Positions 8,696 to 27,037 of a stretch of 40,299 bases of DNA are shown piece by piece. Numbering within the stretch: position 1 is the stretch's first letter; every line of letters begins with the position of its first letter. The position numbers were made by a program, and so were the translations under genes. The stretch comes from Escherichia phage UFJF_EcSW4. The stretch lies in sequence record PP856269. One strand, written 5' to 3'. The notes under the pieces were generated by a model that saw nothing but the letters and a program-made list of their open reading frames with translations, did not search any database and was not told where the DNA came from.

Positions 8696-9391
8696 ATGGC
8701 TAAAGAGCAACTGAAGACTTTCACCACTCCGGTAGCTGGTATCGTTGAGCCTTACGCATGGCTGAACAAAGCAGACACCAAGTTTAACGAGCGTGGTGAG
8801 CATAAGGTTAACCTGACATTCGACCTGAGCAACCCGAAGGTCCGTAAGATGATTGATGTCTTACAGAAGATTCACGACGATGCGTATGCGAAAGCACTCG
8901 CAGACCACGAGAAGAACCCACCTCAGGTTCAGCGTGGCAAGAAGCCTATTGAACCACGAGAAGGCGACATGCCGTGGATTGAGAATGGTGACGGTACTGT
9001 TACCATGAAGTTTAAATGCTTCGCGTCTTACCTGAAGGATGGTAAGTCTGAGCCTATCATATTACGGTTCTACGACACCGATGCTAAGTTAATCCGTGAC
9101 GTCCCGAATATTGGCGCTGGCTCAAAGCTGAAGGTCAAGTTTAAAGTCCTGCCGTTTAAGTGGAACGCTGCGACTGGTGCAAGCGTTAAGCTCCAACTTG
9201 AGTCCTGCCTTCTGGTAGAACTGAAGGAGTGGAAAGGTGATGGTGCTGGTGGCGATGGTGGCTGGGGTGACGATGAAGACCTCGGTACTGGCTACAAAGC
9301 GTCAACCGATGGTGACTTCGGGTCTGATGACTTCGGTGACGATGGTTCCGAAGGTGGTGACGATGATTCCGAAGGCGATTACAACTTCTAA
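8696..9391 (+). CDS. 2.5: Single-stranded DNA-binding protein
   Basis: 231 aa; GDMPWIENGDGTVTMKFKC, GAGSKLKVKFKVLPFKWNAATGASVKLQLES and the acidic C-terminal tail ending in F match T7 gp2.5. Confidence 0.95.
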   Translation: MAKEQLKTFTTPVAGIVEPYAWLNKADTKFNERGEHKVNLTFDLSNPKVRKMIDVLQKIHDDAYAKALADHEKNPPQVQRGKKPIEPREGDMPWIENGDGTVTMKFKCFASYLKDGKSEPIILRFYDTDAKLIRDVPNIGAGSKLKVKFKVLPFKWNAATGASVKLQLESCLLVELKEWKGDGAGGDGGWGDDEDLGTGYKASTDGDFGSDDFGDDGSEGGDDDSEGDYNF

Positions 9392-9840
9392 TGGCTACAG
9401 TGAAAAGCCTTAAGCAGCGACTCATGGTTTCGGGTGACTGCTGGCTTTTTACAGGCTGCGTTAACAACAAGGGCTACGGTCAGATTAGGCATAATGGGAA
9501 AACCATGCTTGCACATCGCGTAGCCTACGAGCTGATTACAGGTGAGGAACCTAACGGTGTTCTACTACACACTTGTGACACTCCGCTATGTTGTAACCCT
9601 GAGCATATGACTGTAGGAACCCAACGGGACAACCTTCAGGACATGCGTAACAAGGGGCGCGGTGTAAACCCTCCTCATGTTCCGGGAGAGAAGTGTGGTA
9701 TGTCTAAACTTACCAACACTAAAGTCAAGGAAATTAGGTCTTCCAGCCTTACCCAGCGACAGCTCGCCACAATCTACGGAGTGTCTCAGCCGACAATAGG
9801 TAAGATACTAAGGAGAGAAACATGGCGACACGTAATATAA
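9391..9840 (+). CDS. HNH homing-endonuclease-like protein with C-terminal helix-turn-helix (gene 2.8 position)
   Basis: VNNKGYGQIRHNGKTMLAHRVAYE...HTCDTPLCCNPEHMTVGTQRDN is an HNH_3-type motif; C-terminal LTQRQLATIYGVSQPTIGKILRRETWRHV is HTH-like; start overlaps the gp2.5 stop (TAATG). Confidence 0.8.
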   Translation: MATVKSLKQRLMVSGDCWLFTGCVNNKGYGQIRHNGKTMLAHRVAYELITGEEPNGVLLHTCDTPLCCNPEHMTVGTQRDNLQDMRNKGRGVNPPHVPGEKCGMSKLTNTKVKEIRSSSLTQRQLATIYGVSQPTIGKILRRETWRHVI

Positions 9841-13420: not shown

Positions 13421-13852
13421 ATGAGGACTTGTAGTAGATGTGGCTATACAAAGGAGTCCACTGAGTTCAGGAAGACAAATGGGTGGTGCATATCCTGTGT
13501 TCGTGAGGATAATAGGTCGCGATATCATCGAAACAAAGGTACAGAGGCCGGTGAGGCACATCGCCTATCTGCCCGTAAGTCTTGGCTTAAGAAAGCCTAT
13601 GGTCTCACACTTGAGGAATATGACACTATGTTCGATAGTCAAAAGGGCAGATGCGCTATATGCTCAGACATTATCTTCAAGCATGGGTCTATTGAGAGTA
13701 AGAATAATGTAGCCCACGTTGACCATTGCCATGACTCAGGTATTGTTAGGGGATTGCTATGTGGTACATGTAATAGCGCACTTGGTAAGTTCGGTGACAA
13801 GTTAGCCGTGCTTAGGGCTGCTATAGCGTACTTGGAGAAATATAATGTTTAA
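13421..13852 (+). CDS. Endonuclease VII-type (HNH superfamily) nuclease
   Basis: 143 aa with CxxC...HVDHCH...GLLCGTCNSALG, the zinc/His-Me signature of the T4 endonuclease VII family. Confidence 0.75.
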   Translation: MRTCSRCGYTKESTEFRKTNGWCISCVREDNRSRYHRNKGTEAGEAHRLSARKSWLKKAYGLTLEEYDTMFDSQKGRCAICSDIIFKHGSIESKNNVAHVDHCHDSGIVRGLLCGTCNSALGKFGDKLAVLRAAIAYLEKYNV

Positions 13853-19671: not shown

Positions 19672-21240
19672 ATGGCTGAACGTGAAGGGTTCGCTGCTGA
19701 AGGAGCCAAAGCGGTCTATGACCGACTGAAGAACGGTAGACAGCCATATGAGACACGCGCTCAGAACTGTGCTGCTGTCACTATCCCATCACTATTTCCT
19801 AAGGAGTCCGACAACTCGTCTACTGAGTACACCACTCCGTGGCAAGCTGTGGGTGCTCGCTGCTTGAACAACTTGGCTGCAAAGCTGATGTTGGCATTAT
19901 TCCCTCAGTCACCGTGGATGCGACTGACAGTCTCCGAATATGAGGCAAAGACCTTGAGTCAGGACTCAGAGGCGGCTGCTCGTGTTGATGAAGGGCTGGC
20001 TATGGTCGAGCGTGTGTTGATGGCTTACATGGAGACTAACAGTTTCCGTGTCCCATTATTCGAGGCGCTGAAGCAGCTTATAGTCTCCGGTAACTGTCTG
20101 CTCTACATTCCAGAGCCTGAACAGGGAACCTACAGTCCCATGCGAATGTACCGCTTAGTGTCTTACGTTGTTCAACGTGATGCGTTCGGTAATATCTTGC
20201 AGATTGTGACTCTCGACAAGGTAGCGTTTAGTGCTCTACCGGAAGACGTGAAGTCTCAACTCAACGCAGACGACTATGAGCCTGACACCGAGCTTGAAGT
20301 GTATACGCACATCTACCGTCAGGACGACGAGTATCTGCGCTACGAGGAGGTGGAAGGCATTGAGGTGACAGGGACCGATGGTTCCTACCCGCTGACTGCA
20401 TGTCCATACATCCCGGTACGAATGGTTCGACTGGATGGTGAAGACTACGGTCGTTCTTACTGCGAGGAGTATCTGGGAGACCTGAACTCGCTGGAGACGA
20501 TTACAGAAGCTATCACTAAAATGGCTAAGGTAGCCTCCAAGGTGATTGGCCTCGTTAACCCGAACGGTATCACGCAACCTCGACGTCTGAACAAGGCGGC
20601 TACAGGTGAGTTCGTGGCTGGTCGCGTTGAGGACATCAACTTCCTGCAACTGACGAAAGGTCAGGACTTTACGATTGCTAAGTCGGTGGCTGACGCTATC
20701 GAGCAACGTTTAGGCTGGGCCTTCCTTCTTAATAGTGCTGTTCAGCGTAATGCCGAGCGAGTCACTGCCGAAGAGATTCGTTATGTTGCTGGCGAACTGG
20801 AGGCGACCTTAGGTGGCGTGTACTCAGTACAGTCACAAGAGCTTCAGTTACCTATCGTCCGTGTACTGATGAACCAACTTCAGTCTGCTGGCATGATTCC
20901 TGACCTTCCGAAAGAAGCGGTAGAGCCTACGGTCTCCACTGGTCTGGAAGCTCTGGGCCGTGGTCAGGACTTGGAGAAGCTGACTCAGGCGGTTAACATG
21001 ATGACAGGTCTTCAGCCGCTATCTCAGGACCCGGACATCAACTTGCCGACCCTTAAGCTGCGACTCCTGAACGCTCTGGGCATCGACACCGCTGGCCTAC
21101 TCCTGACGCAAGACGAGAAGATTCAGCGCATGGCTGAGCAGTCGTCTCAACAGGCAGTTGTCCAAGGTGCTAGTGCTGCTGGTGCTAACATGGGGGCTGC
21201 TGTAGGTCAAGGAGCTGGTGAGGACATGGCTCAAGCCTAA
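19672..21240 (+). CDS. 8: Portal (head-to-tail connector) protein
   Basis: YETRAQNCA, TPWQAVGAR, YRLVSYVVQRDAFGN, CPYIPVRMVRLDGEDYGRSY, GLVNPNGITQPRRL, RVTAEEIRYVAGELE match T7 gp8. Confidence 0.97.
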   Translation: MAEREGFAAEGAKAVYDRLKNGRQPYETRAQNCAAVTIPSLFPKESDNSSTEYTTPWQAVGARCLNNLAAKLMLALFPQSPWMRLTVSEYEAKTLSQDSEAAARVDEGLAMVERVLMAYMETNSFRVPLFEALKQLIVSGNCLLYIPEPEQGTYSPMRMYRLVSYVVQRDAFGNILQIVTLDKVAFSALPEDVKSQLNADDYEPDTELEVYTHIYRQDDEYLRYEEVEGIEVTGTDGSYPLTACPYIPVRMVRLDGEDYGRSYCEEYLGDLNSLETITEAITKMAKVASKVIGLVNPNGITQPRRLNKAATGEFVAGRVEDINFLQLTKGQDFTIAKSVADAIEQRLGWAFLLNSAVQRNAERVTAEEIRYVAGELEATLGGVYSVQSQELQLPIVRVLMNQLQSAGMIPDLPKEAVEPTVSTGLEALGRGQDLEKLTQAVNMMTGLQPLSQDPDINLPTLKLRLLNALGIDTAGLLLTQDEKIQRMAEQSSQQAVVQGASAAGANMGAAVGQGAGEDMAQA

Positions 21241-21348: not shown

Positions 21349-22230
21349 ATGTCTCAATCAGTTTATGCCGAGTTCGGCGTTAGCTCTAATGCAATCACTG
21401 GTTCCGTTGAGGACCTGAACGAACACCAGAAGTCTATGCTTGAACAGGACGTAGCTGTTCGTGATGGCGATGACGCTATTACCTTCAAGCAACTGGAAGC
21501 CGAAAACGAAGAGGCGACCGAAGAAGACGAGAACGTCGAAGAGGCTGAAGGTGAAGACAACGAGTCCGATGACGAAGAGTCTGAGACCGATGGTGAGCAG
21601 CCTGAGTTCATCGAACTGGGTGATGCACCGAAAGAGCTGACCGAAAGTGTCACCGCTCTGGATGAAAACGAAGCTGCATTTGACGACATGGTGTCTTCTG
21701 CTGTAGAAGCTGGCAAGGTCACTGCTGATGAAATTACCGCTATCAAGGCTGAATACGCCAAGGACGGTAAGCTGTCTGACGCATCCTACGCTAAGTTGCA
21801 GGAAGCAGGTTACACAAAGCGTTTCGTAGATTCGTTTGTCCGGGGTCAGGAAGCTCTTGCTGAACAGTATGCTGCTGGTGTGGTTCGCTACGCTGGTGGT
21901 GCTGAACAGTTTAATCGCATCCTGTCACACCTTGAGTCCAACGACCCGTCAACTCGTGAAGCACTTGAAGCTGCTATCGTTCGTAAGGACATTGCTACTA
22001 CCAAAGCTCTGCTGAATCTGGCTGGCAAGACTCTGGGTAAAGCTGTGGGTGTTAAACCTCAGCGTACCATCACCACTCAGGCTAAACCTGTGGTCGCACC
22101 TAAGGCTCCTCAGACCGAAGCATTCAGCTCCAAGGCTGACATGATTAAGGCTATGAGTGACCCGCGATACCTGCGTGACGCTAAATACACGATGGAAGTT
22201 CGCGCTAAGGTAGCTGCCTCAAGCCTGTAG
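21349..22230 (+). CDS. 9: Capsid assembly (scaffolding) protein
   Basis: Acidic protein; VYAEFGV..., SYAKLQEAGYTKRFVDSFVRGQEALAEQY and C-terminal KAMSDPRYLRDAKY match T7 gp9; ATG at 21349 has AAGGAG upstream (track ORF starts at a GTG at 21313). Confidence 0.9.
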   Translation: MSQSVYAEFGVSSNAITGSVEDLNEHQKSMLEQDVAVRDGDDAITFKQLEAENEEATEEDENVEEAEGEDNESDDEESETDGEQPEFIELGDAPKELTESVTALDENEAAFDDMVSSAVEAGKVTADEITAIKAEYAKDGKLSDASYAKLQEAGYTKRFVDSFVRGQEALAEQYAAGVVRYAGGAEQFNRILSHLESNDPSTREALEAAIVRKDIATTKALLNLAGKTLGKAVGVKPQRTITTQAKPVVAPKAPQTEAFSSKADMIKAMSDPRYLRDAKYTMEVRAKVAASSL

Positions 22231-22231
22231 G

Positions 22232-22254
22232 ACTAAACTATCACTATAGGGAGA
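22232..22254 (+). promoter_or_regulatory. Phage RNAP promoter (phi10-position; full TATAGGGAGA initiation region)
   Basis: ACTAAACTATCACTATAGGGAGACC; +1 at 22249; the closest match to a strong class III promoter. Confidence 0.85.
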
Positions 22255-22356
22255 CCAAGAGAAAGACTCAAGGTTTCCCTATTACTTCAGTCCATACGGA
22301 TTGGGCGTACAGTAAGTAATAAACTTTATCTTTCAATTGAATAGGAGAATTATCAT

Positions 22357-23406: not shown

Positions 23407-23669
23407 CGACCTTTAAGGCCCTCTCTACAGAGGGTCCTACCTTAGAGACGTACAGTTCTACGGTGGGGACCAGCCTGAAGGTTGACTTCCCTGAGCTTTC
23501 AGATGTGACCGACTGGTCGCTGCTTGATGTTACTACGCCTGATGGTGTTAGTTACTCCCGTAGAACCAACAGTCTCTACTTCAAGGCCACCTCTGGCGTG
23601 GAAGGTCTAGTGATTGTTGAGTATGACGGTTCGCCTGTGCGTTCCTTCAACGTATCTTTCACAAACTAA
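22357..23669 (+). CDS. 10: Predicted minor capsid protein (10B-type), made by a -1 ribosomal frameshift near 23379-23385 (GGTTTTC)
   Basis: The -1 frame is open from 23331 to 23669, overlapping the last 25 codons of 10A; GGTTTTC lies 8 codons before the 10A stop, and the T7 10A C-terminus has the same ...VVF motif; gives a roughly 95-aa extension. Not computed beyond reading the frames. Confidence 0.45.
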
Positions 23670-23673
23670 TTGA

Positions 23674-23713
23674 AACCCCTTGGGTGCCTTCGGGTGCTTG
23701 AGGGGTTTTTTTG
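23674..23713 (+). terminator. Tphi-like transcription terminator
   Basis: AACCCCT tgggtgccttcgggtgcttg AGGGGTT then TTTTTTG; same architecture and location (after the capsid gene) as T7 Tphi. Confidence 0.8.
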
Positions 23714-23727
23714 CTTAAGGAGGGACT

Positions 23728-23817
23728 ATGGTCCTTATTTACACAGGGTTAGCACTATTCGTCTTATTCTGGGCGTACCTTCTGTCCAGCTCACCGTCTA
23801 GTGCCTATGACCGTTAA
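23728..23817 (+). CDS. Possible 29-aa hydrophobic peptide between Tphi and gene 11
   Basis: AAGGAGGG then ATG at spacing 5; MVLIYTGLALFVLFWAYLLSSSPSSAYDR; very short, may be spurious. Confidence 0.2.
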   Translation: MVLIYTGLALFVLFWAYLLSSSPSSAYDR

Positions 23818-23829
23818 GGAGTAAAACCT

Positions 23830-24396
23830 ATGGCTCAATACATTCCACTGAATGCTAACGATGACTTAGATGCCATCAACGATATGTTAGCAGCTATCGG
23901 TGAACCAGCAGTCCTACAGCTTGATGAAGGCAATGCTGACGTCTCGAATGCTCAACGCATCCTGCATCGTGTCAATCGTCAGGTCCAAGCTAAGGGATGG
24001 AACTTTAACATTAATGAAGCTGCTGTCCTGACACCTGATGTCCAAGACAACAGGATTCGATTCCTGCCGTCATACCTTCGTGTAATGACTGCCGGGGCCA
24101 CCAGCTACTACAGCAACATGGGTGGATACCTGTACGACCTGTCCACTCAGTCAACCACTTTCACCGACCCTATAACGGTAGAGCTTGTTGAGATGAAACC
24201 GTTCTCTGAGATGCCTGTGGTATTCAGGGATTACATCGTTACCAAGGCCAGCCGTGAGTTCAACGCTAAGTTCTTCGGTAGCCCAGAGTCTGAACTGTAC
24301 CTTCGTGAGCAGGAAGCAGAACTCTATCAGCAGGTCATGGAATACGAGATGGACACTGGTCGCTACAACATGATGTCCGACATCGGGAGGGACTAA
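23830..24396 (+). CDS. 11: Tail tubular protein A
   Basis: INDMLAAIGEP, NAQRILHRVNRQVQAKGWNFNI, GGYLYDLSTQS, FRDYIVTKASREFNAKFFG, MEYEMD match T7 gp11. Confidence 0.95.
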   Translation: MAQYIPLNANDDLDAINDMLAAIGEPAVLQLDEGNADVSNAQRILHRVNRQVQAKGWNFNINEAAVLTPDVQDNRIRFLPSYLRVMTAGATSYYSNMGGYLYDLSTQSTTFTDPITVELVEMKPFSEMPVVFRDYIVTKASREFNAKFFGSPESELYLREQEAELYQQVMEYEMDTGRYNMMSDIGRD

Positions 24397-24623
24397 TGGC
24401 TAGTCACAACCTGAAGATTCACCGCCAACACTTTGGTCCGGTACAACTAGGTCTAAAGACAGCAGAGCTGAGACTTAACGACCGTGACTTTAAGGTTGGC
24501 GACTGGCTTATCCTGAATGAGTGGGACAACGGGTATACTGGACAACAGGTAGCACGTAAGGTTGTCCACATTGATGACGTTGGTGACATCGCTGAGGGAT
24601 ACGTCCTAATGAGTATGATTTAA
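24396..24623 (+). CDS. DUF3850/ASCH-like small protein inserted between tail tubular genes
   Basis: 75 aa; H.LKIHRQHF.....GLKTAELRLNDRDFKVGDWLILNEW...YTG...GYVLMS fits the DUF3850 (ASCH/PUA-like) pattern as I recall it; ATG overlaps the gp11 stop (TAATG) with GGGAGGG upstream. Confidence 0.6.
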   Translation: MASHNLKIHRQHFGPVQLGLKTAELRLNDRDFKVGDWLILNEWDNGYTGQQVARKVVHIDDVGDIAEGYVLMSMI

Positions 24624-24632
24624 GGAGGGCCT

Positions 24633-26990
24633 ATGCCACTAATTACTCAATCAATCAAGAACCTTAAAGGCGGTATTAGCCAGCAGCCAGACATACTGAG
24701 GTTCTCAGACCAAGGCGAGGAGCAAGTTAACTGCTGGTCATCCGAAAGTGATGGACTCCAGAAGCGTCCACCTACAGTCTTCAAGCGACGTCTTGACATC
24801 GACGTTGGGAGCAACCCTAAGTTCCACCTGATTAACCGTGATGAGCAGGAGCAGTATTACATCGTGTTCAACGGGTCCAACATTCAGGTAGTCGACTTGA
24901 GCGGTAATCAATACTCAGTTTCAGGTGCGGTAGACTACGTTAAGTCGTCCAACCCGCGAGATGACATCCGTGTCGTTACAGTTGCAGACTATACGTTCAT
25001 CGTGAACCGTAAGGTTGTCGTTAACGGTGGAAGCGAGAAGTCACACTCTGGTTATAATCGTAAAGCTCGTGCTTTAATTAACCTGCGTGGTGGACAGTAT
25101 GGTCGCACCCTTAAGGTAGGAATCAACGGAGGCGTTAAGGTTTCGCATAAGCTGCCAGCAGGTAATGATGCCGAGAATGACCCACCTAAGGTGGATGCTC
25201 AGGCCATCGGTGCAGCTCTGAGAGACCTTCTTGTTGCTGCTTACCCTACCTTCACGTTCGACCTTGGGTCTGGCTTCCTGTTAATCACTGCCCCTTCAGG
25301 GACTGACATTAACTCAGTGGAGACGGAGGATGGCTACGCTAACCAGCTAATCAGCCCAGTCCTAGACACGGTGCAAACAATCTCTAAGTTGCCTCTTGCG
25401 GCTCCAAATGGGTACATCATTAAGATTCAAGGTGAGACCAACAGTAGCGCCGATGAATATTACGTGATGTATGACTCCAACACTAAGACGTGGAAGGAGA
25501 CAGTAGAGCCGGGAGTTGTCACTGGGTTCGATGTAACCACAATGCCACATGCTCTGGTCAGAAAGTCTGATGGCTCCTTTGAGTTCAAGACTCTGGACTG
25601 GTCTAAGCGCGGTGCGGGTAATGATGCCACAAACCCTATGCCCAGCTTCGTGGATGCTACGATTAACGATGTGTTCTTCTACAGGAACAGGCTGGGGTTC
25701 TTGTCGGGCGAGAACGTAATTATGAGCCGTTCAGCCAGCTACTTTGCGTTCTTCCCTAAGAGTGTGGCGACATTGAGTGATGATGACCCTATTGACGTAG
25801 CTGTAAGTCACCCTAGAATCTCAATACTTAAGTATGCCGTTCCGTTTAGCGAGCAGCTACTACTTTGGTCAGATGAGGTGCAGTTCGTGATGACAAGCTC
25901 AGGGGTCCTTACCTCGAAGTCTATCCAGCTTGATGTGGGCTCAGAGTTTGCCTTAGGTGATAACGCCAGACCGTTCGCTGTAGGACGCTCAGTCTTCTTC
26001 TCAGCACCTCGTGGGTCATTCACCAGCATTAAGCGATACTTCGCTGTAGCAGATGTGTCTGACGTGAAGGATGCCGATGATACCACTGGTCACGTACTGT
26101 CCTATATCCCTAACGGGGTGTTTGACATTCAGGGAACAGGAACTGAGAACTACATCTGCGTCAACTCTACAGGTGCATACAACCGAATCTACATCTACAA
26201 GTTCCTGTTTAAGGACGGCGTACAGCTTCAAGCCTCTTGGTCGCACTGGGAGTTCCCTAAAGCTGATAAGATTCTGGCGTCTGCGTCGATTGGCTCTACC
26301 ATGTTCATTGTTCGTCAGCACCAAGGGGGTGTGGACATTGAGCACCTTAAGTTCATCAAGGAGGCGACTGACTTTCCATTAGAGCCGTATAGACTCCACG
26401 TTGACTCCAAGGTGTCTATGGTAATCCCAATTGGCTCATATAACGCTGACACCTATGAGACTACGGTCGACATTGGTTCTGCTTATGGTGGAAACGCTCC
26501 GTCTCCAGGTCGGTACTATCTGATTGACAGTCAGGGTGCCTATGTGGACCTTGGTGAACTGACCGACATCTCAACTGTGGCTATACTCAATGGCGATTGG
26601 TCGGGACGTACAGTGTTCATCGGACGGTCTTATCTGATGTCCTACAAGTTCTCACGGTTCCTGATTAAGATTGAAGATGAGAGTGGCACTCAGTCTGAAG
26701 ACACTGGACGTCTACAACTTCGCAGGGCTTGGGTCAACTACAAGGACACTGGCGCTCTTAGACTCATTGTCAGAAACGGTGAGCGGGAGTTCGTGAACAC
26801 CTTTAATGGGTACACCCTTGGTCAGCAAACCATCGGGACTACCAACATTGGGGATGGACAGTATCGCTTCGCTATGAATGGTAACGCATTAACCACGAGC
26901 CTAACCTTAGAGTCAGACTATCCTACCCCAGTGTCCATCGTTGGGTGTGGCTGGGAGGCGTCATACGCTAAGAAAGCTCGTTCCGTCTAA
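24633..26990 (+). CDS. 12: Tail tubular protein B
   Basis: 785 aa; SQSIKNLKGGISQQPDILR, GLQKRPP, HLINRDE.EQYY, VTVADYTFIVNR, INDVFFYRNRLGFLSGENV, DDDPIDVAVS, ILKYAVPFSE, LQLRRAWVNY, GCGWE match T7 gp12. Confidence 0.97.
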   Translation: MPLITQSIKNLKGGISQQPDILRFSDQGEEQVNCWSSESDGLQKRPPTVFKRRLDIDVGSNPKFHLINRDEQEQYYIVFNGSNIQVVDLSGNQYSVSGAVDYVKSSNPRDDIRVVTVADYTFIVNRKVVVNGGSEKSHSGYNRKARALINLRGGQYGRTLKVGINGGVKVSHKLPAGNDAENDPPKVDAQAIGAALRDLLVAAYPTFTFDLGSGFLLITAPSGTDINSVETEDGYANQLISPVLDTVQTISKLPLAAPNGYIIKIQGETNSSADEYYVMYDSNTKTWKETVEPGVVTGFDVTTMPHALVRKSDGSFEFKTLDWSKRGAGNDATNPMPSFVDATINDVFFYRNRLGFLSGENVIMSRSASYFAFFPKSVATLSDDDPIDVAVSHPRISILKYAVPFSEQLLLWSDEVQFVMTSSGVLTSKSIQLDVGSEFALGDNARPFAVGRSVFFSAPRGSFTSIKRYFAVADVSDVKDADDTTGHVLSYIPNGVFDIQGTGTENYICVNSTGAYNRIYIYKFLFKDGVQLQASWSHWEFPKADKILASASIGSTMFIVRQHQGGVDIEHLKFIKEATDFPLEPYRLHVDSKVSMVIPIGSYNADTYETTVDIGSAYGGNAPSPGRYYLIDSQGAYVDLGELTDISTVAILNGDWSGRTVFIGRSYLMSYKFSRFLIKIEDESGTQSEDTGRLQLRRAWVNYKDTGALRLIVRNGEREFVNTFNGYTLGQQTIGTTNIGDGQYRFAMNGNALTTSLTLESDYPTPVSIVGCGWEASYAKKARSV

Positions 26991-27014: not shown

Positions 27015-27037
27015 CCTTAACTATCACTATAGGGACT
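27015..27037 (+). promoter_or_regulatory. Phage RNAP promoter (phi13-position)
   Basis: CCTTAACTATCACTATAGGGACT; +1 at 27032. Confidence 0.75.

What the first reader, a model, noticed from the sequence alone, without database searches (positions are those of the whole stretch)
24396..24623. DUF3850/ASCH-like gene inserted between tail tubular genes 11 and 12
In T7 and the relatives I can recall, gene 11 is followed directly by gene 12. Here a 75-aa ORF is wedged between them, translationally coupled to gp11 (TAATG overlap, GGGAGGG SD). Its sequence fits the small ASCH/PUA-like DUF3850 pattern (LKI..F.....G.KT.E.R.NDRDF.VGD.L.L.EW...YTG...GYV.MS). ASCH domains are proposed RNA- or modified-nucleotide-binding modules. 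Its place in the late structural operon implies high late expression; it could be a virion component or a late-acting host or defence modulator.
Basis: partly seen in the sequence, partly recalled or inferred. Interest (0 to 1): 0.6.

Follow-up and report, generated by a model that had tools for sequence, protein, structure and literature searches.

The report
Known small ASCH-fold accessory gene
The 75-codon gene between tail genes 11 and 12 is real and encodes a tiny ASCH/DUF3850 barrel protein, but about three quarters of sequenced K1F-like (Kayfunavirus) phages carry it in the same place, where it is already annotated, dispensable and probably not part of the virion.

Summary
ORF 24396-24623 (+) encodes 75 aa. 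Its ATG overlaps the gene 11 stop (TAATG) and follows a GGGAGGG Shine-Dalgarno. It hits Pfam DUF3850 (E 2.4e-19) and ASCH (E 1.3e-5). The AlphaFold model (pLDDT 92.5) superposes on PDB 3IUW at TM 0.90.

The window is a Kayfunavirus, closest to Vec13, whose protein is 100% identical. About 168 GenBank phage records carry this gene in the same slot, against about 217 with this type of gp11. They label it 'RNA-binding protein', 'DUF3850' or gene '11.05' (CR44b, 2014).

The gene is accessory. K1F, whose gp11 is 100% identical, lacks exactly this 237-bp cassette. Dev2, CR8 and T7 also lack it. It is under purifying selection (dN/dS 0.03-0.22) and has diverged in step with gp12. The CR44b and LET1 copies have lost motif residues. 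The CR44b record flags virion mass-spectrometry matches for gp11 and gp12 but not for 11.05.

The protein keeps the ASCH octapeptide G19-x-K21-x-x-E24-x-R26. My best guess, which is inference only, is a soluble late-expressed enzyme or reader for an N4-acyl or otherwise modified cytidine, not a tail part. Low interest; already known.

The parts
24396..24623 (+). DUF3850/ASCH gene (75 aa, 8.6 kDa, pI 6.0), equivalent to 'gene 11.05' of CR44b. Carries the ASCH octapeptide G19-x-K21-x-x-E24-x-R26 followed by N28-D29-R30-D31.
24385..24398 (+). Coupling junction. The Shine-Dalgarno GGGAGGG is built from the Gly-Arg codons of gene 11, followed by the TAATG stop/start overlap.
   Evidence: The same junction occurs in L007, L009, LET1, CR44b and yong1. 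Dev2 and CR8 use GGTCGA/AGCCGA codons and lack this internal SD.
24396..24632 (+). 237-bp ATG-to-ATG cassette: the ORF plus its own AAGGAGG SD for gene 12. This is exactly the segment missing in K1F-type genomes.
   Evidence: record spans of 838 vs 601 bases
24622..24628 (+). Shine-Dalgarno AAGGAGG serving gene 12, overlapping the ORF's stop codon
23830..24396 (+). Gene 11 (tail adaptor, 'tubular protein A'), 188 aa, 100% identical to K1F gp11
   Evidence: (PF17212 Tube)
24633..26990 (+). Gene 12 (tail nozzle, 'tubular protein B'), 785 aa
   Evidence: (PF25675 Phage_nozzle)
22232..22254 (+). Phage RNA polymerase promoter phi10, identical to the annotated EcoDS1 promoter. It is the nearest upstream promoter for genes 10, 11, DUF3850 and 12.
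23672..23709 (+). Terminator Tphi between genes 10 and 11. Genes 11, DUF3850 and 12 would be expressed by read-through, as in T7 (established T7 knowledge).
27015..27037 (+). Promoter phi13, the next promoter downstream. It marks the end of the 11-DUF3850-12 unit.

Best explanation
This is a genuine, conserved but dispensable accessory gene of Kayfunavirus (K1F-like T7 relatives). It encodes a minimal PUA-like/ASCH beta-barrel of the DUF3850 family.

Shown. It is transcribed with tail genes 11 and 12 in the late (class III) unit and is translationally coupled to gene 11. It was acquired within the Kayfunavirus lineage, because T7 and the sister genus Caroctavirus (CR8) lack it, as does the Kayfunavirus Dev2. 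It has since co-diverged with gene 12 under purifying selection. It has been lost cleanly in the K1F group and is decaying in CR44b and LET1. It retains the ASCH octapeptide G-x-K21-x-x-E24-x-R26 ('GKER' type), plus the family-invariant residues H4, N28, D29, R30, D36 and E42.

Inferred. It acts as a small soluble protein in the infected cell, not as a virion part. The conserved pocket binds a flipped-out or free modified pyrimidine. The most likely action is hydrolysis of an N4-acyl group, ac4C-type amidohydrolase chemistry with a Lys/Glu dyad, on host tRNA or on nucleosides. I give the enzymatic mechanism itself roughly 0.3 probability. I give the identity and the accessory, non-structural status roughly 0.85-0.95.
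For: Identity. Pfam DUF3850 69.7 bits and ASCH 26.2 bits. PHROG 986, E 3.9e-34. PDB 3IUW, E 1.6e-10 as a single sequence and 3.3e-19 with a profile. The AF2 model has pLDDT 92.5 and matches 3IUW at TM 0.90. The next hits are ASCH proteins: PH0355, YqfB 9KYF, EOLA1, ZmASCH and TRIP4.

Motif. K21, R26, N28, D29, R30, D36, E42 and H4 are invariant, and E24 is at least 90% conserved, across 63 distant representatives. They are also conserved across 29 close homologues. A DUF3850 profile aligns to E. coli YqfB with hhalign probability 90%. G19, K21 and R26 match, and E24 sits opposite the catalytic Thr24. A 2026 preprint (bioRxiv 10.64898/2026.02.27.708502) shows that GKER-type ASCH proteins remove ac4C from tRNA with an essential Lys/Glu dyad.

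Real gene and old resident. dN/dS is 0.03-0.22. Copies of 67-73% aa identity sit in the same slot next to gp12 copies of 70-71% identity.

Accessory and non-structural. K1F has a 100% identical gp11 and lacks the gene. In one search, 22 of the 60 top-ranked records lack it. Dev2, CR8 and T7 lack it. The CR44b record gives MS matches for gp11 and gp12 but none for 11.05. Homologues in P2 (Orf91), Bas77 and SRT8 lie in early or replication-side accessory blocks.

Expression. There is no promoter or terminator between Tphi and phi13.
Against: No DUF3850 or phage protein was among the ASCH proteins tested biochemically (one search found no mention of 'phage'). The activity is therefore extrapolated across about 15% sequence identity.

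The YqfB triad is not conserved: Thr24 is replaced by Glu, and no counterpart of Glu74 was aligned.

The only ac4C site I know of in E. coli RNA is tRNA-Met C34 (my own knowledge). I cannot see an obvious benefit to the phage from erasing it.

The protein is slightly acidic (pI 6.0), which is atypical for a tRNA binder.

The CR44b and LET1 copies keep the ORF but have lost N28/R30/D31 and, in CR44b, K7 and GY. Either the pocket is dispensable or those copies are decaying.

The virion mass-spectrometry evidence is weak. It comes from the divergent CR44b copy, and a small 8.6-kDa protein is easily missed. The B1 study analysed only eight gel bands.
Confidence: 0.6

Rival explanations
1. The protein is a non-catalytic reader or sponge. 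The barrel only binds a modified base (for example m6A or 4mC in DNA, or a modified RNA base) or a cytidine-type nucleotide. This would shield phage nucleic acid from modification-dependent nucleases or sequester a signalling nucleotide, making it an anti-defence factor.
For: PUA-superfamily domains (SRA, EVE, YTH, ASCH) are base-flipping readers. ASCH was predicted to read modified bases, including m6A, from fusions to and operons with N6A-methyltransferases (PMC4738411; PMC11037411). DUF3850 is recurrently fused to the CTP-binding ParB-CTPase fold in phages and prophages (PMC12704722). It is also fused to DUF551 modules (7 of 63) and to a dATP/dGTP pyrophosphohydrolase (1 of 63). P2 Orf91 sits next to the tin/old exclusion genes. 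The presence/absence pattern is typical of counter-defence genes.
Against: The m6A-reader role of ASCH has not been confirmed experimentally. The Lys/Glu/Arg octapeptide and a dense set of invariant charged residues look more like an active site than a reader pocket. Late expression is a poor time to counter restriction of incoming DNA unless the protein is packaged, and no evidence supports packaging. There is no significant PADLOC hit (best E 0.0027).
Confidence: 0.22
2. The protein is a virion or tail-associated protein, or a tail-assembly chaperone, made together with gp11 and gp12. This is one of the first reader's suggestions.
For: The gene lies between the two tail-tube genes, is translationally coupled to gene 11 and is in the late operon. 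Very weak Foldseek similarities to beta-barrel domains of phage tail-tip and baseplate proteins were seen, with E above 0.1.
Against: K1F-group phages with 100% identical gp11 and 97% identical gp12 lack it. Dev2, SH3 and SH4 build the same tail without it, and their virion MS lists no extra protein. The CR44b record flags MS matches for 11 and 12 but not for 11.05. Homologues in more than 380 other phage records sit outside structural modules where sampled. The fold and motif belong to a nucleoside-handling family.
Confidence: 0.06
3. The cassette is selfish or neutral. It persists because it sits in a recombination-tolerant slot, possibly spread with neighbouring homing endonucleases, and gives the phage no function.
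For: The indel runs cleanly from ATG to ATG. The same slot holds an extra Endonuclease_7 ORF in yong1, B1 and KM02. A second cassette of the same design, a 29-aa ORF, lies upstream of gene 11. There have been repeated losses and two decayed copies.
Against: Purifying selection is strong, with dN/dS 0.03-0.22 over dS above 1, comparable with gp12. Catalytic-type residues are invariant across thousands of family members. The protein has no nuclease or recombinase domain.
Confidence: 0.1
4. The ORF is spurious and is really a long intergenic spacer.
For: None beyond its small size.
Against: Pfam E 2.4e-19, a confident fold, conservation with low dN/dS, and a proper SD with start/stop coupling.
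Confidence: 0.01

Closest known systems
Kayfunavirus orthologues: Vec13 hypothetical protein, EcoDS1 AS9_0040 (YP_002003774.1, 'RNA-binding protein'), CR44b gene 11.05, and FFK3/EPr2 'DUF3850 domain-containing protein'
   Same: Same slot between genes 11 and 12, same TAATG coupling and same length. Identity is 100% to Vec13 and 98.7% to EcoDS1.
   Different: Nothing of substance. CR44b's copy is only 44.6% identical and has lost motif residues. None of these has been characterised experimentally, as far as the searched literature shows.
PDB 3IUW, 'activating signal cointegrator' NP_814290.1 of Enterococcus faecalis V583 (a DUF3850 structural-genomics entry)
   Same: 38-41% identity, TM 0.90, rmsd 1.3 A over 75 residues. 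Both carry the same KT-x-E-x-R-x-NDR motif.
   Different: It is a bacterial, possibly prophage, protein with no assigned function.
Phage P2 Orf91 and other phage DUF3850 proteins (PHROG 986; T1-like, Guernseyvirinae-like, Listeria, Enterococcus and Gordonia phages)
   Same: Same domain at about 35-60% identity. All are small accessory proteins.
   Different: These lie in early, replication-side or accessory gene blocks, often with C-terminal extensions or fusions (ParB-CTPase, DUF551). Only in Kayfunavirus does the gene sit inside the tail gene cluster.
GKER-type ASCH proteins (Thermus TthASCH 2DP9, human EOLA1 and TRIP4-ASCH), reported as tRNA ac4C deacetylases
   Same: PUA-like barrel, the G-x-K-x-x-E-x-R octapeptide and a conserved Lys/Glu pair.
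   Different: These are about 110-160 aa with extra helices, against 75 aa for DUF3850, which also has its own NDRD extension of the motif. Sequence identity is about 10-16%. No activity data exist for DUF3850.
E. coli YqfB, N4-acetylcytidine amidohydrolase (PDB 9KYF, 1TE7)
   Same: ASCH fold. G19, K21 and R26 align residue for residue (hhalign probability 90%). Foldseek TMq is 0.64-0.66.
   Different: Thr24 is Glu here. The helical insert carrying Glu74 has no aligned counterpart. The two share about 16-24% identity.

Membership tests
DUF3850 (Pfam PF12961) | Profile HMM score above the curated gathering cut-off over the full domain | tested here: met
   69.7 bits against a cut-off of 22.9, E 2.4e-19, residues 4-73 on profile positions 2-76 of 77
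DUF3850 (Pfam PF12961) | Fold of the only solved member (3IUW): a compact beta-barrel of about 80 residues with one helix | tested here: met
   AF2 pLDDT 92.5. Foldseek to 3IUW_B gives TM 0.90/0.85, rmsd 1.3 A and 41% identity
DUF3850 (Pfam PF12961) | Family-invariant residues H4, K21, E24, R26, N28, D29, R30, D36, E42 and G-Y near the C-terminus | tested here: met
   All are present in the window protein. They are invariant or at least 90% conserved in 63 distant representatives and 29 close homologues
ASCH superfamily (Pfam PF04266, PUA-like clan) | Profile match above the gathering cut-off | tested here: met
   26.2 bits against a cut-off of 21.2, E 1.3e-5
ASCH superfamily (Pfam PF04266, PUA-like clan) | Conserved octapeptide G-x-K-x-x-[E/T/S]-x-R | tested here: met
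   G19-L-K21-T-A-E24-L-R26. It aligns to G19-R-K21-T-I-T24-I-R26 of YqfB (hhalign probability 90%).
YqfB-type N4-acetylcytidine amidohydrolases | Catalytic residues Lys21, Thr24, Arg26 and Glu74 (PMC9599836) | tested here: not met
   Lys21 and Arg26 are conserved, but Thr24 is Glu24. The profile alignment ends at residue 47/49, before the YqfB segment that carries Glu74. The protein is not a YqfB-type member
GKER-type ASCH tRNA ac4C deacetylases (TthASCH, EOLA1, TRIP4-ASCH) | Essential Lys/Glu dyad in the octapeptide | tested here: met
   K21 and E24 are present and conserved. This is tested at the sequence level only
GKER-type ASCH tRNA ac4C deacetylases (TthASCH, EOLA1, TRIP4-ASCH) | Aromatic residues that position the nucleoside (Tyr14 and Tyr81 in TthASCH) | tested here: inconclusive
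   F13 and Y69 are conserved aromatics in DUF3850. I could not obtain a residue-level structural superposition on 2DP9 with these tools
GKER-type ASCH tRNA ac4C deacetylases (TthASCH, EOLA1, TRIP4-ASCH) | Demonstrated deacetylase activity on ac4C or tRNA | not testable with these tools
   Needs biochemistry. No DUF3850 or phage protein was in the tested set
T7-like virion (tail) proteins | Present in all phages that build the same tail | tested here: not met
   Absent in K1F (gp11 100% and gp12 97% identical), Dev2, CR8 and T7, and in 22 of the 60 top-ranked records
T7-like virion (tail) proteins | Detected in purified virions | tested here: not met
   The CR44b record notes MS matches for 11 other virion proteins, including gp11 and gp12, but not for 11.05. 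The B1 band-MS did not list ORF40. This is weak negative evidence
Homing endonuclease / self-mobile cassette | Encodes a nuclease domain (HNH, GIY-YIG, LAGLIDADG or Endo VII) | tested here: not met
   Only DUF3850 and ASCH domains were found. The Endonuclease_7 ORF found in this slot in yong1 is a separate gene and is absent from the window

The most novel reading that the evidence does not exclude
The protein is a virus-encoded 'eraser' or editor of a modified cytidine. This late-expressed minimal GKER-type ASCH enzyme would deacylate ac4C or a related N4-modified cytosine. The substrate could be host tRNA (for example elongator tRNA-Met), a nucleotide, or DNA. The effect would be to retune translation or nucleotide pools, or to disarm a modification-dependent defence late in infection. 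That would make DUF3850, with more than 5000 representative clusters (50% identity) that are mostly from phages and prophages, a widespread phage RNA/DNA-demodification family.
Probability: 0.15. Interest if true: 0.6.

Novelty: already known. Interest (0 to 1): 0.18.

Why it matters
As found, it matters little. The gene and its domain assignment are already in GenBank and RefSeq for well over a hundred Kayfunavirus genomes, and small accessory ORFs wedged between T7-like core genes are commonplace.

Two things are mildly useful. First, the natural presence/absence series gives isogenic-like material for testing what DUF3850 does. The series has four states: K1F-type clean deletion, Dev2-type empty site, canonical copy, and decayed CR44b/LET1 copies. 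Second, the family is large (5077 representative clusters at E <= 0.001), enriched in phages, retains an ASCH Lys/Glu/Arg pocket and has no experimentally known function. If recent reports that ASCH proteins erase ac4C hold up, this small T7-like protein would be an easy entry point for asking whether phages edit host RNA modifications.

Tried and rejected
1. PADLOC defence models gave only an insignificant hit (E 0.0027, 15.8 bits). NCBIfam gave none.

2. Rfam (gathering threshold) and tRNA scans of the whole window found nothing. There is no RNA element in or near the ORF. The 56-aa antisense ORF 24419-24589 lies on the strand opposite all the predicted genes of the window and I dismissed it as spurious; I did not test it further.

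3. Literature searches for DUF3850, 'ASCH domain' plus phage, Kayfunavirus plus mass spectrometry, and orf91 found no functional study of any phage DUF3850 protein. One paper id could not be read.

4. The first homologous-protein run returned only 29 close relatives. The exhaustive representative search was needed for family-wide conservation.

5. Enterobacter phage 04_vB_Eclo_IJM is a frameshift-ridden assembly and was not used.

6. YqfB-type membership was tested and rejected.

7. The virion-component idea was rejected on distribution and MS annotations.

8. The homing-endonuclease-passenger idea was considered and downgraded, because the endonuclease is present in only a few genomes and the gene shows strong purifying selection.

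9. I could not do a residue-level structural superposition on YqfB-ac4C (9KYF) or TthASCH (2DP9), because model coordinates are not exposed to scripts.
Full report

Yes. The + strand carries an ATG-initiated ORF at 24396..24623 encoding 75 aa. Gene 11 (23830..24396, 188 aa) stops with TAA at 24394-24396, and the ORF's ATG starts on the last A, giving the TAATG overlap. GGGAGGG lies at 24385-24391. The ORF's TAA (24621-24623) overlaps AAGGAGG, which serves gene 12 (ATG at 24633, 785 aa).

**2. What is the protein?**

- Pfam gives DUF3850 at 69.7 bits (cut-off 22.9, E 2.4e-19) over almost the whole profile, and ASCH at 26.2 bits (cut-off 21.2).
- PHROGs gives phrog_986, 'RNA-binding protein', E 3.9e-34.
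- The only sequence-detectable solved relative is 3IUW, a structural-genomics 'activating signal cointegrator' from Enterococcus faecalis. E is 1.6e-10 with the single sequence and 3.3e-19 with a profile.
- An AlphaFold2 model from 29 sequences has mean pLDDT 92.5. It superposes on 3IUW with TM 0.90 and rmsd 1.3 A.
- The next structural neighbours are all ASCH proteins: PH0355, E. coli YqfB 9KYF/9KYH, PF0470, EOLA1, ZmASCH and TRIP4. More distantly come YTH and EVE domains.
- BFVD neighbours are phage DUF3850/ASCH proteins.

**3. What is the window, and how common is the gene there?**

The window is a complete-looking T7-like genome of the genus Kayfunavirus. Its closest relative is Escherichia phage Vec13, at about 94% nt identity. 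Vec13 encodes a 100% identical protein.

A megablast of the gene 11 / ORF / gene 12-start segment found 214 phage records. In 156 of them one place covers at least 80% of the query, which requires the ORF to be present. tblastn with the protein found 168 records at 60% identity or more. tblastn with gp11 found 217 records with this type of gp11 (80% identity or more) and 1062 other T7-like records below 60%.

So roughly three quarters of sequenced Kayfunavirus-type phages carry the gene. In every case I inspected, it sits in the same slot with the same overlap:

- EcoDS1
- Hafnia yong1
- two metagenomic lineages, L007 and L009
- Pectobacterium LET1
- Enterobacter B1 ORF40
- CR44b

The records call it 'RNA-binding protein', 'DUF3850 domain-containing protein', 'activating signal cointegrator' or 'hypothetical protein'. 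In the 2014 CR44b annotation it is numbered gene 11.05. The gene is lineage-specific, not rare or new.

**4. Presence/absence and history**

T7 has only a 23-nt gap between genes 11 and 12. Within Kayfunavirus the type species K1F also lacks the gene. Its sequence reads ...GGGAGGGACTAATGCCGCTT, so gene 12 starts on the gene 11 stop. The window differs from K1F by exactly the 237 bp at 24396-24632, which is the ORF plus its own SD for gene 12.

With the K1F junction as query, the 60 best records split as follows:

| State | Records |
|---|---|
| No insert (span 601 or 600) | 22 |
| +237 bp | 37 |
| +655 bp | 1 |

The +655 case (yong1), together with B1 and KM02, carries an additional Endonuclease_7 ORF (PF02945, E 2.6e-20) between the DUF3850 gene and gene 12.

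Dev2 (Kayfunavirus), SH3 to SH5 and CR8 (sister genus Caroctavirus) have a different empty site. Gene 11 ends ...GGTCGAGACTAA (Dev2) or AGCCGAGAGTAA (CR8) with no internal SD. An 11-nt spacer with its own SD follows, then gene 12.

K1F shares the SD-forming GGG-AGG codons and the TAATG overlap with the cassette-bearing phages. I therefore infer that the K1F state is a secondary deletion. It could have arisen between the near-repeats GGAGGGACTAATG and GGAGGGCCTATG at the two cassette ends. The Dev2/CR8/T7 state would then be the ancestral empty site.

The gene is an old resident, not a recent arrival. In L007 and L009 it is 73% and 67% identical to the window protein, while gp12 is 70-71% identical and dS exceeds 1. 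dN/dS is 0.12-0.22 for those pairs and 0.03-0.05 for close pairs, similar to gp12.

Two lineages show decay of the conserved motif. In LET1, NDRD has become YDEG and three residues are deleted. In CR44b, identity is 44.6% and K7, N28, R30, D31 and the C-terminal GY are lost. The CR44b type is unique to CR44b in the collection.

**5. Expression**

Eleven matches to the EcoDS1-type phage promoter occur in the window. The relevant ones are phi9 at 21236, phi10 at 22232 and phi13 at 27015, with none in between. The Tphi hairpin is at 23672-23709, and no terminator-like site lies between it and phi13.

The gene therefore belongs to the late 10-11-12 unit, downstream of Tphi. By analogy with T7, it would be expressed by terminator read-through and translated in step with gene 11. 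'Late expression' is supported. 'High' expression is not shown.

**6. Is it a virion component?**

This is unlikely.

- K1F's gp11 is 100% identical to the window's and its gp12 is 97% identical, yet K1F has no such gene. So there is no sign of co-adaptation.
- Dev2-type phages build the same tail without it. Virion LC-MS/MS of SH3 and SH4 lists only the canonical proteins.
- The CR44b record marks 'matches in mass spectrometry analysis' on gp7.3, 8, 9, 10A, 11, 12, 14, 15, 16, 17 and 17.01, but not on 11.05. This is weak evidence, because the protein is small and the copy divergent.
- Phage B1 band-MS was too limited to be informative.
- Homologues elsewhere sit in non-structural contexts. 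P2 Orf91 follows replication gene A and lies next to tin/old. Bas77 has it beside a primase. SRT8 has it in a block of small genes near polynucleotide kinase.

**7. How might it work?**

An exhaustive HMMER search found 5077 representative clusters at E <= 0.001. Across 63 distant, often multi-domain, representatives the invariant positions are H4, K21, R26, N28, D29, R30, D36, E42 and a Gly in the YTG turn. L6, K7, G19, E24 and G-Y-V are at least 90% conserved.

G19-x-K21-x-x-E24-x-R26 is the ASCH octapeptide. A DUF3850 profile aligns to E. coli YqfB (sequence taken from MG1655) with hhalign probability 90%. G19, K21 and R26 are in register, and E24 sits opposite YqfB's Thr24. The alignment stops before the helical segment that holds YqfB's Glu74.

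The protein is therefore not a YqfB-type amidohydrolase; the YqfB catalytic set is given in PMC9599836. It does belong to the 'GKER' class. A February 2026 preprint reports that GKER-type ASCH proteins (TthASCH, EOLA1, TRIP4-ASCH and several archaeal and bacterial ones) remove ac4C from tRNA, and often from the free nucleoside, with Lys and Glu essential. No phage or DUF3850 protein was tested there.

The dense set of invariant charged residues and the mildly acidic pI of 6.0 suggest a pocket for a small or flipped-out ligand rather than a general RNA-binding surface. My best guess is a soluble enzyme acting on an N4-acylated or otherwise modified cytidine in tRNA or in nucleosides. I hold this at about 0.3.

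The main rival is a non-catalytic reader or sponge for a modified base or a cytidine nucleotide. It draws support from predicted ASCH-methyltransferase associations and from phage ParB-CTPase-DUF3850 fusions. An m6A-reader role for ASCH remains unconfirmed.

Domain fusions seen among relatives were DUF551 (7 of 63), a dATP/dGTP pyrophosphohydrolase (1) and DUF7415 (1).

**8. Comparison and novelty**

The gene is an already sequenced and annotated member of a known family. It is identical to the Vec13 protein and orthologous to EcoDS1 AS9_0040 and CR44b 11.05. Its position inside the tail cluster is a Kayfunavirus peculiarity, but that too is visible in over 150 public records. What is unknown is the biochemical function of DUF3850 in any organism. 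The literature searches found none. I rate it 'already known' with low interest. The remaining value is the chance that it is a viral modified-cytidine eraser, which the natural deletion series makes easy to test.

**9. Seen in passing**

- A second cassette of the same ATG-to-ATG design lies upstream of gene 11. It is a 29-aa hydrophobic ORF at 23728-23817 with a strong SD. It is absent from EcoDS1, K1F, yong1, L007 and L009 and present in 48 records, mostly unannotated.
- A 68-aa ORF (23463-23669) lies between gene 10 and Tphi with no Pfam hit. A 68-aa gene is also called at the same position in L007 and L008.

Noticed in passing
window 23728-23817 (+): A 29-aa hydrophobic mini-ORF (MVLIYTGLALFVLFWAYLLSSSPSSAYDR) with a strong SD (TAAGGAGGGACTATG) lies between terminator Tphi and gene 11. 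It is a roughly 102-bp ATG-to-ATG cassette that brings its own SD for gene 11. It is absent from EcoDS1, K1F, yong1, L007 and L009 and present in 48 Kayfunavirus records, mostly unannotated. It may encode a small membrane peptide of unknown role.
   Followed up: partly
window 23463-23669 (+): A 68-aa ORF lies between the gene 10 stop (23406) and Tphi, with no Pfam hit. A 68-aa gene is also called at the same position in L007 and L008. Similar-sized ORFs occupy the same position in other records: 'gp10.1' in Dev2, ORF38 in B1 and a hypothetical protein in LET1. I did not compare their sequences. The EcoDS1 record marks this position as a 'region of similarity to gp10B', so it could be a gp10B frameshift extension or a separate small late protein.
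   Followed up: partly
L004 (Hafnia phage yong1) 1140-1580; also Enterobacter phage B1 ORF41 and Escherichia phage KM02: In some Kayfunavirus genomes an extra Endonuclease_7-fold ORF (PF02945, E 2.6e-20) sits between the DUF3850 gene and gene 12. Its SD (GGAGGTGATATG) matches the one that precedes gene 12 in Dev2. The 11/12 junction is a hotspot for small cassettes.
   Followed up: partly
L017 (CR44b) 22053-22277; L016 (LET1) 2067-2285: These are orthologues of the DUF3850 gene with intact reading frames but with family-invariant residues lost. CR44b is 44.6% identical and has lost K7, N28, R30, D31 and GY. In LET1, NDRD has become YDEG and three residues are deleted. They are either decaying copies or copies with a function independent of the conserved pocket.
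   Followed up: partly
window 9391-9840 and 13421-13852 (+): Two ORFs (149 and 143 aa) have N-termini typical of HNH-type homing endonucleases of T7-like phages (…CWLFTGCVNNKGYGQ…; …CSRCGYTKESTEF…). This is judged by eye only, from the ORF list.
   Followed up: no
P0058-P0174 (representative proteins): Many enterobacterial, apparently prophage, proteins have an N-terminal DUF3850 domain. It is followed by highly variable C-terminal modules with recurring 'APPAPVVP' and 'ACRAAMLQ' linkers and sometimes DUF551. This shuffled modular architecture resembles lambdoid Ead/Ea22-type accessory proteins; that resemblance is from my own recollection and was not tested.
   Followed up: no
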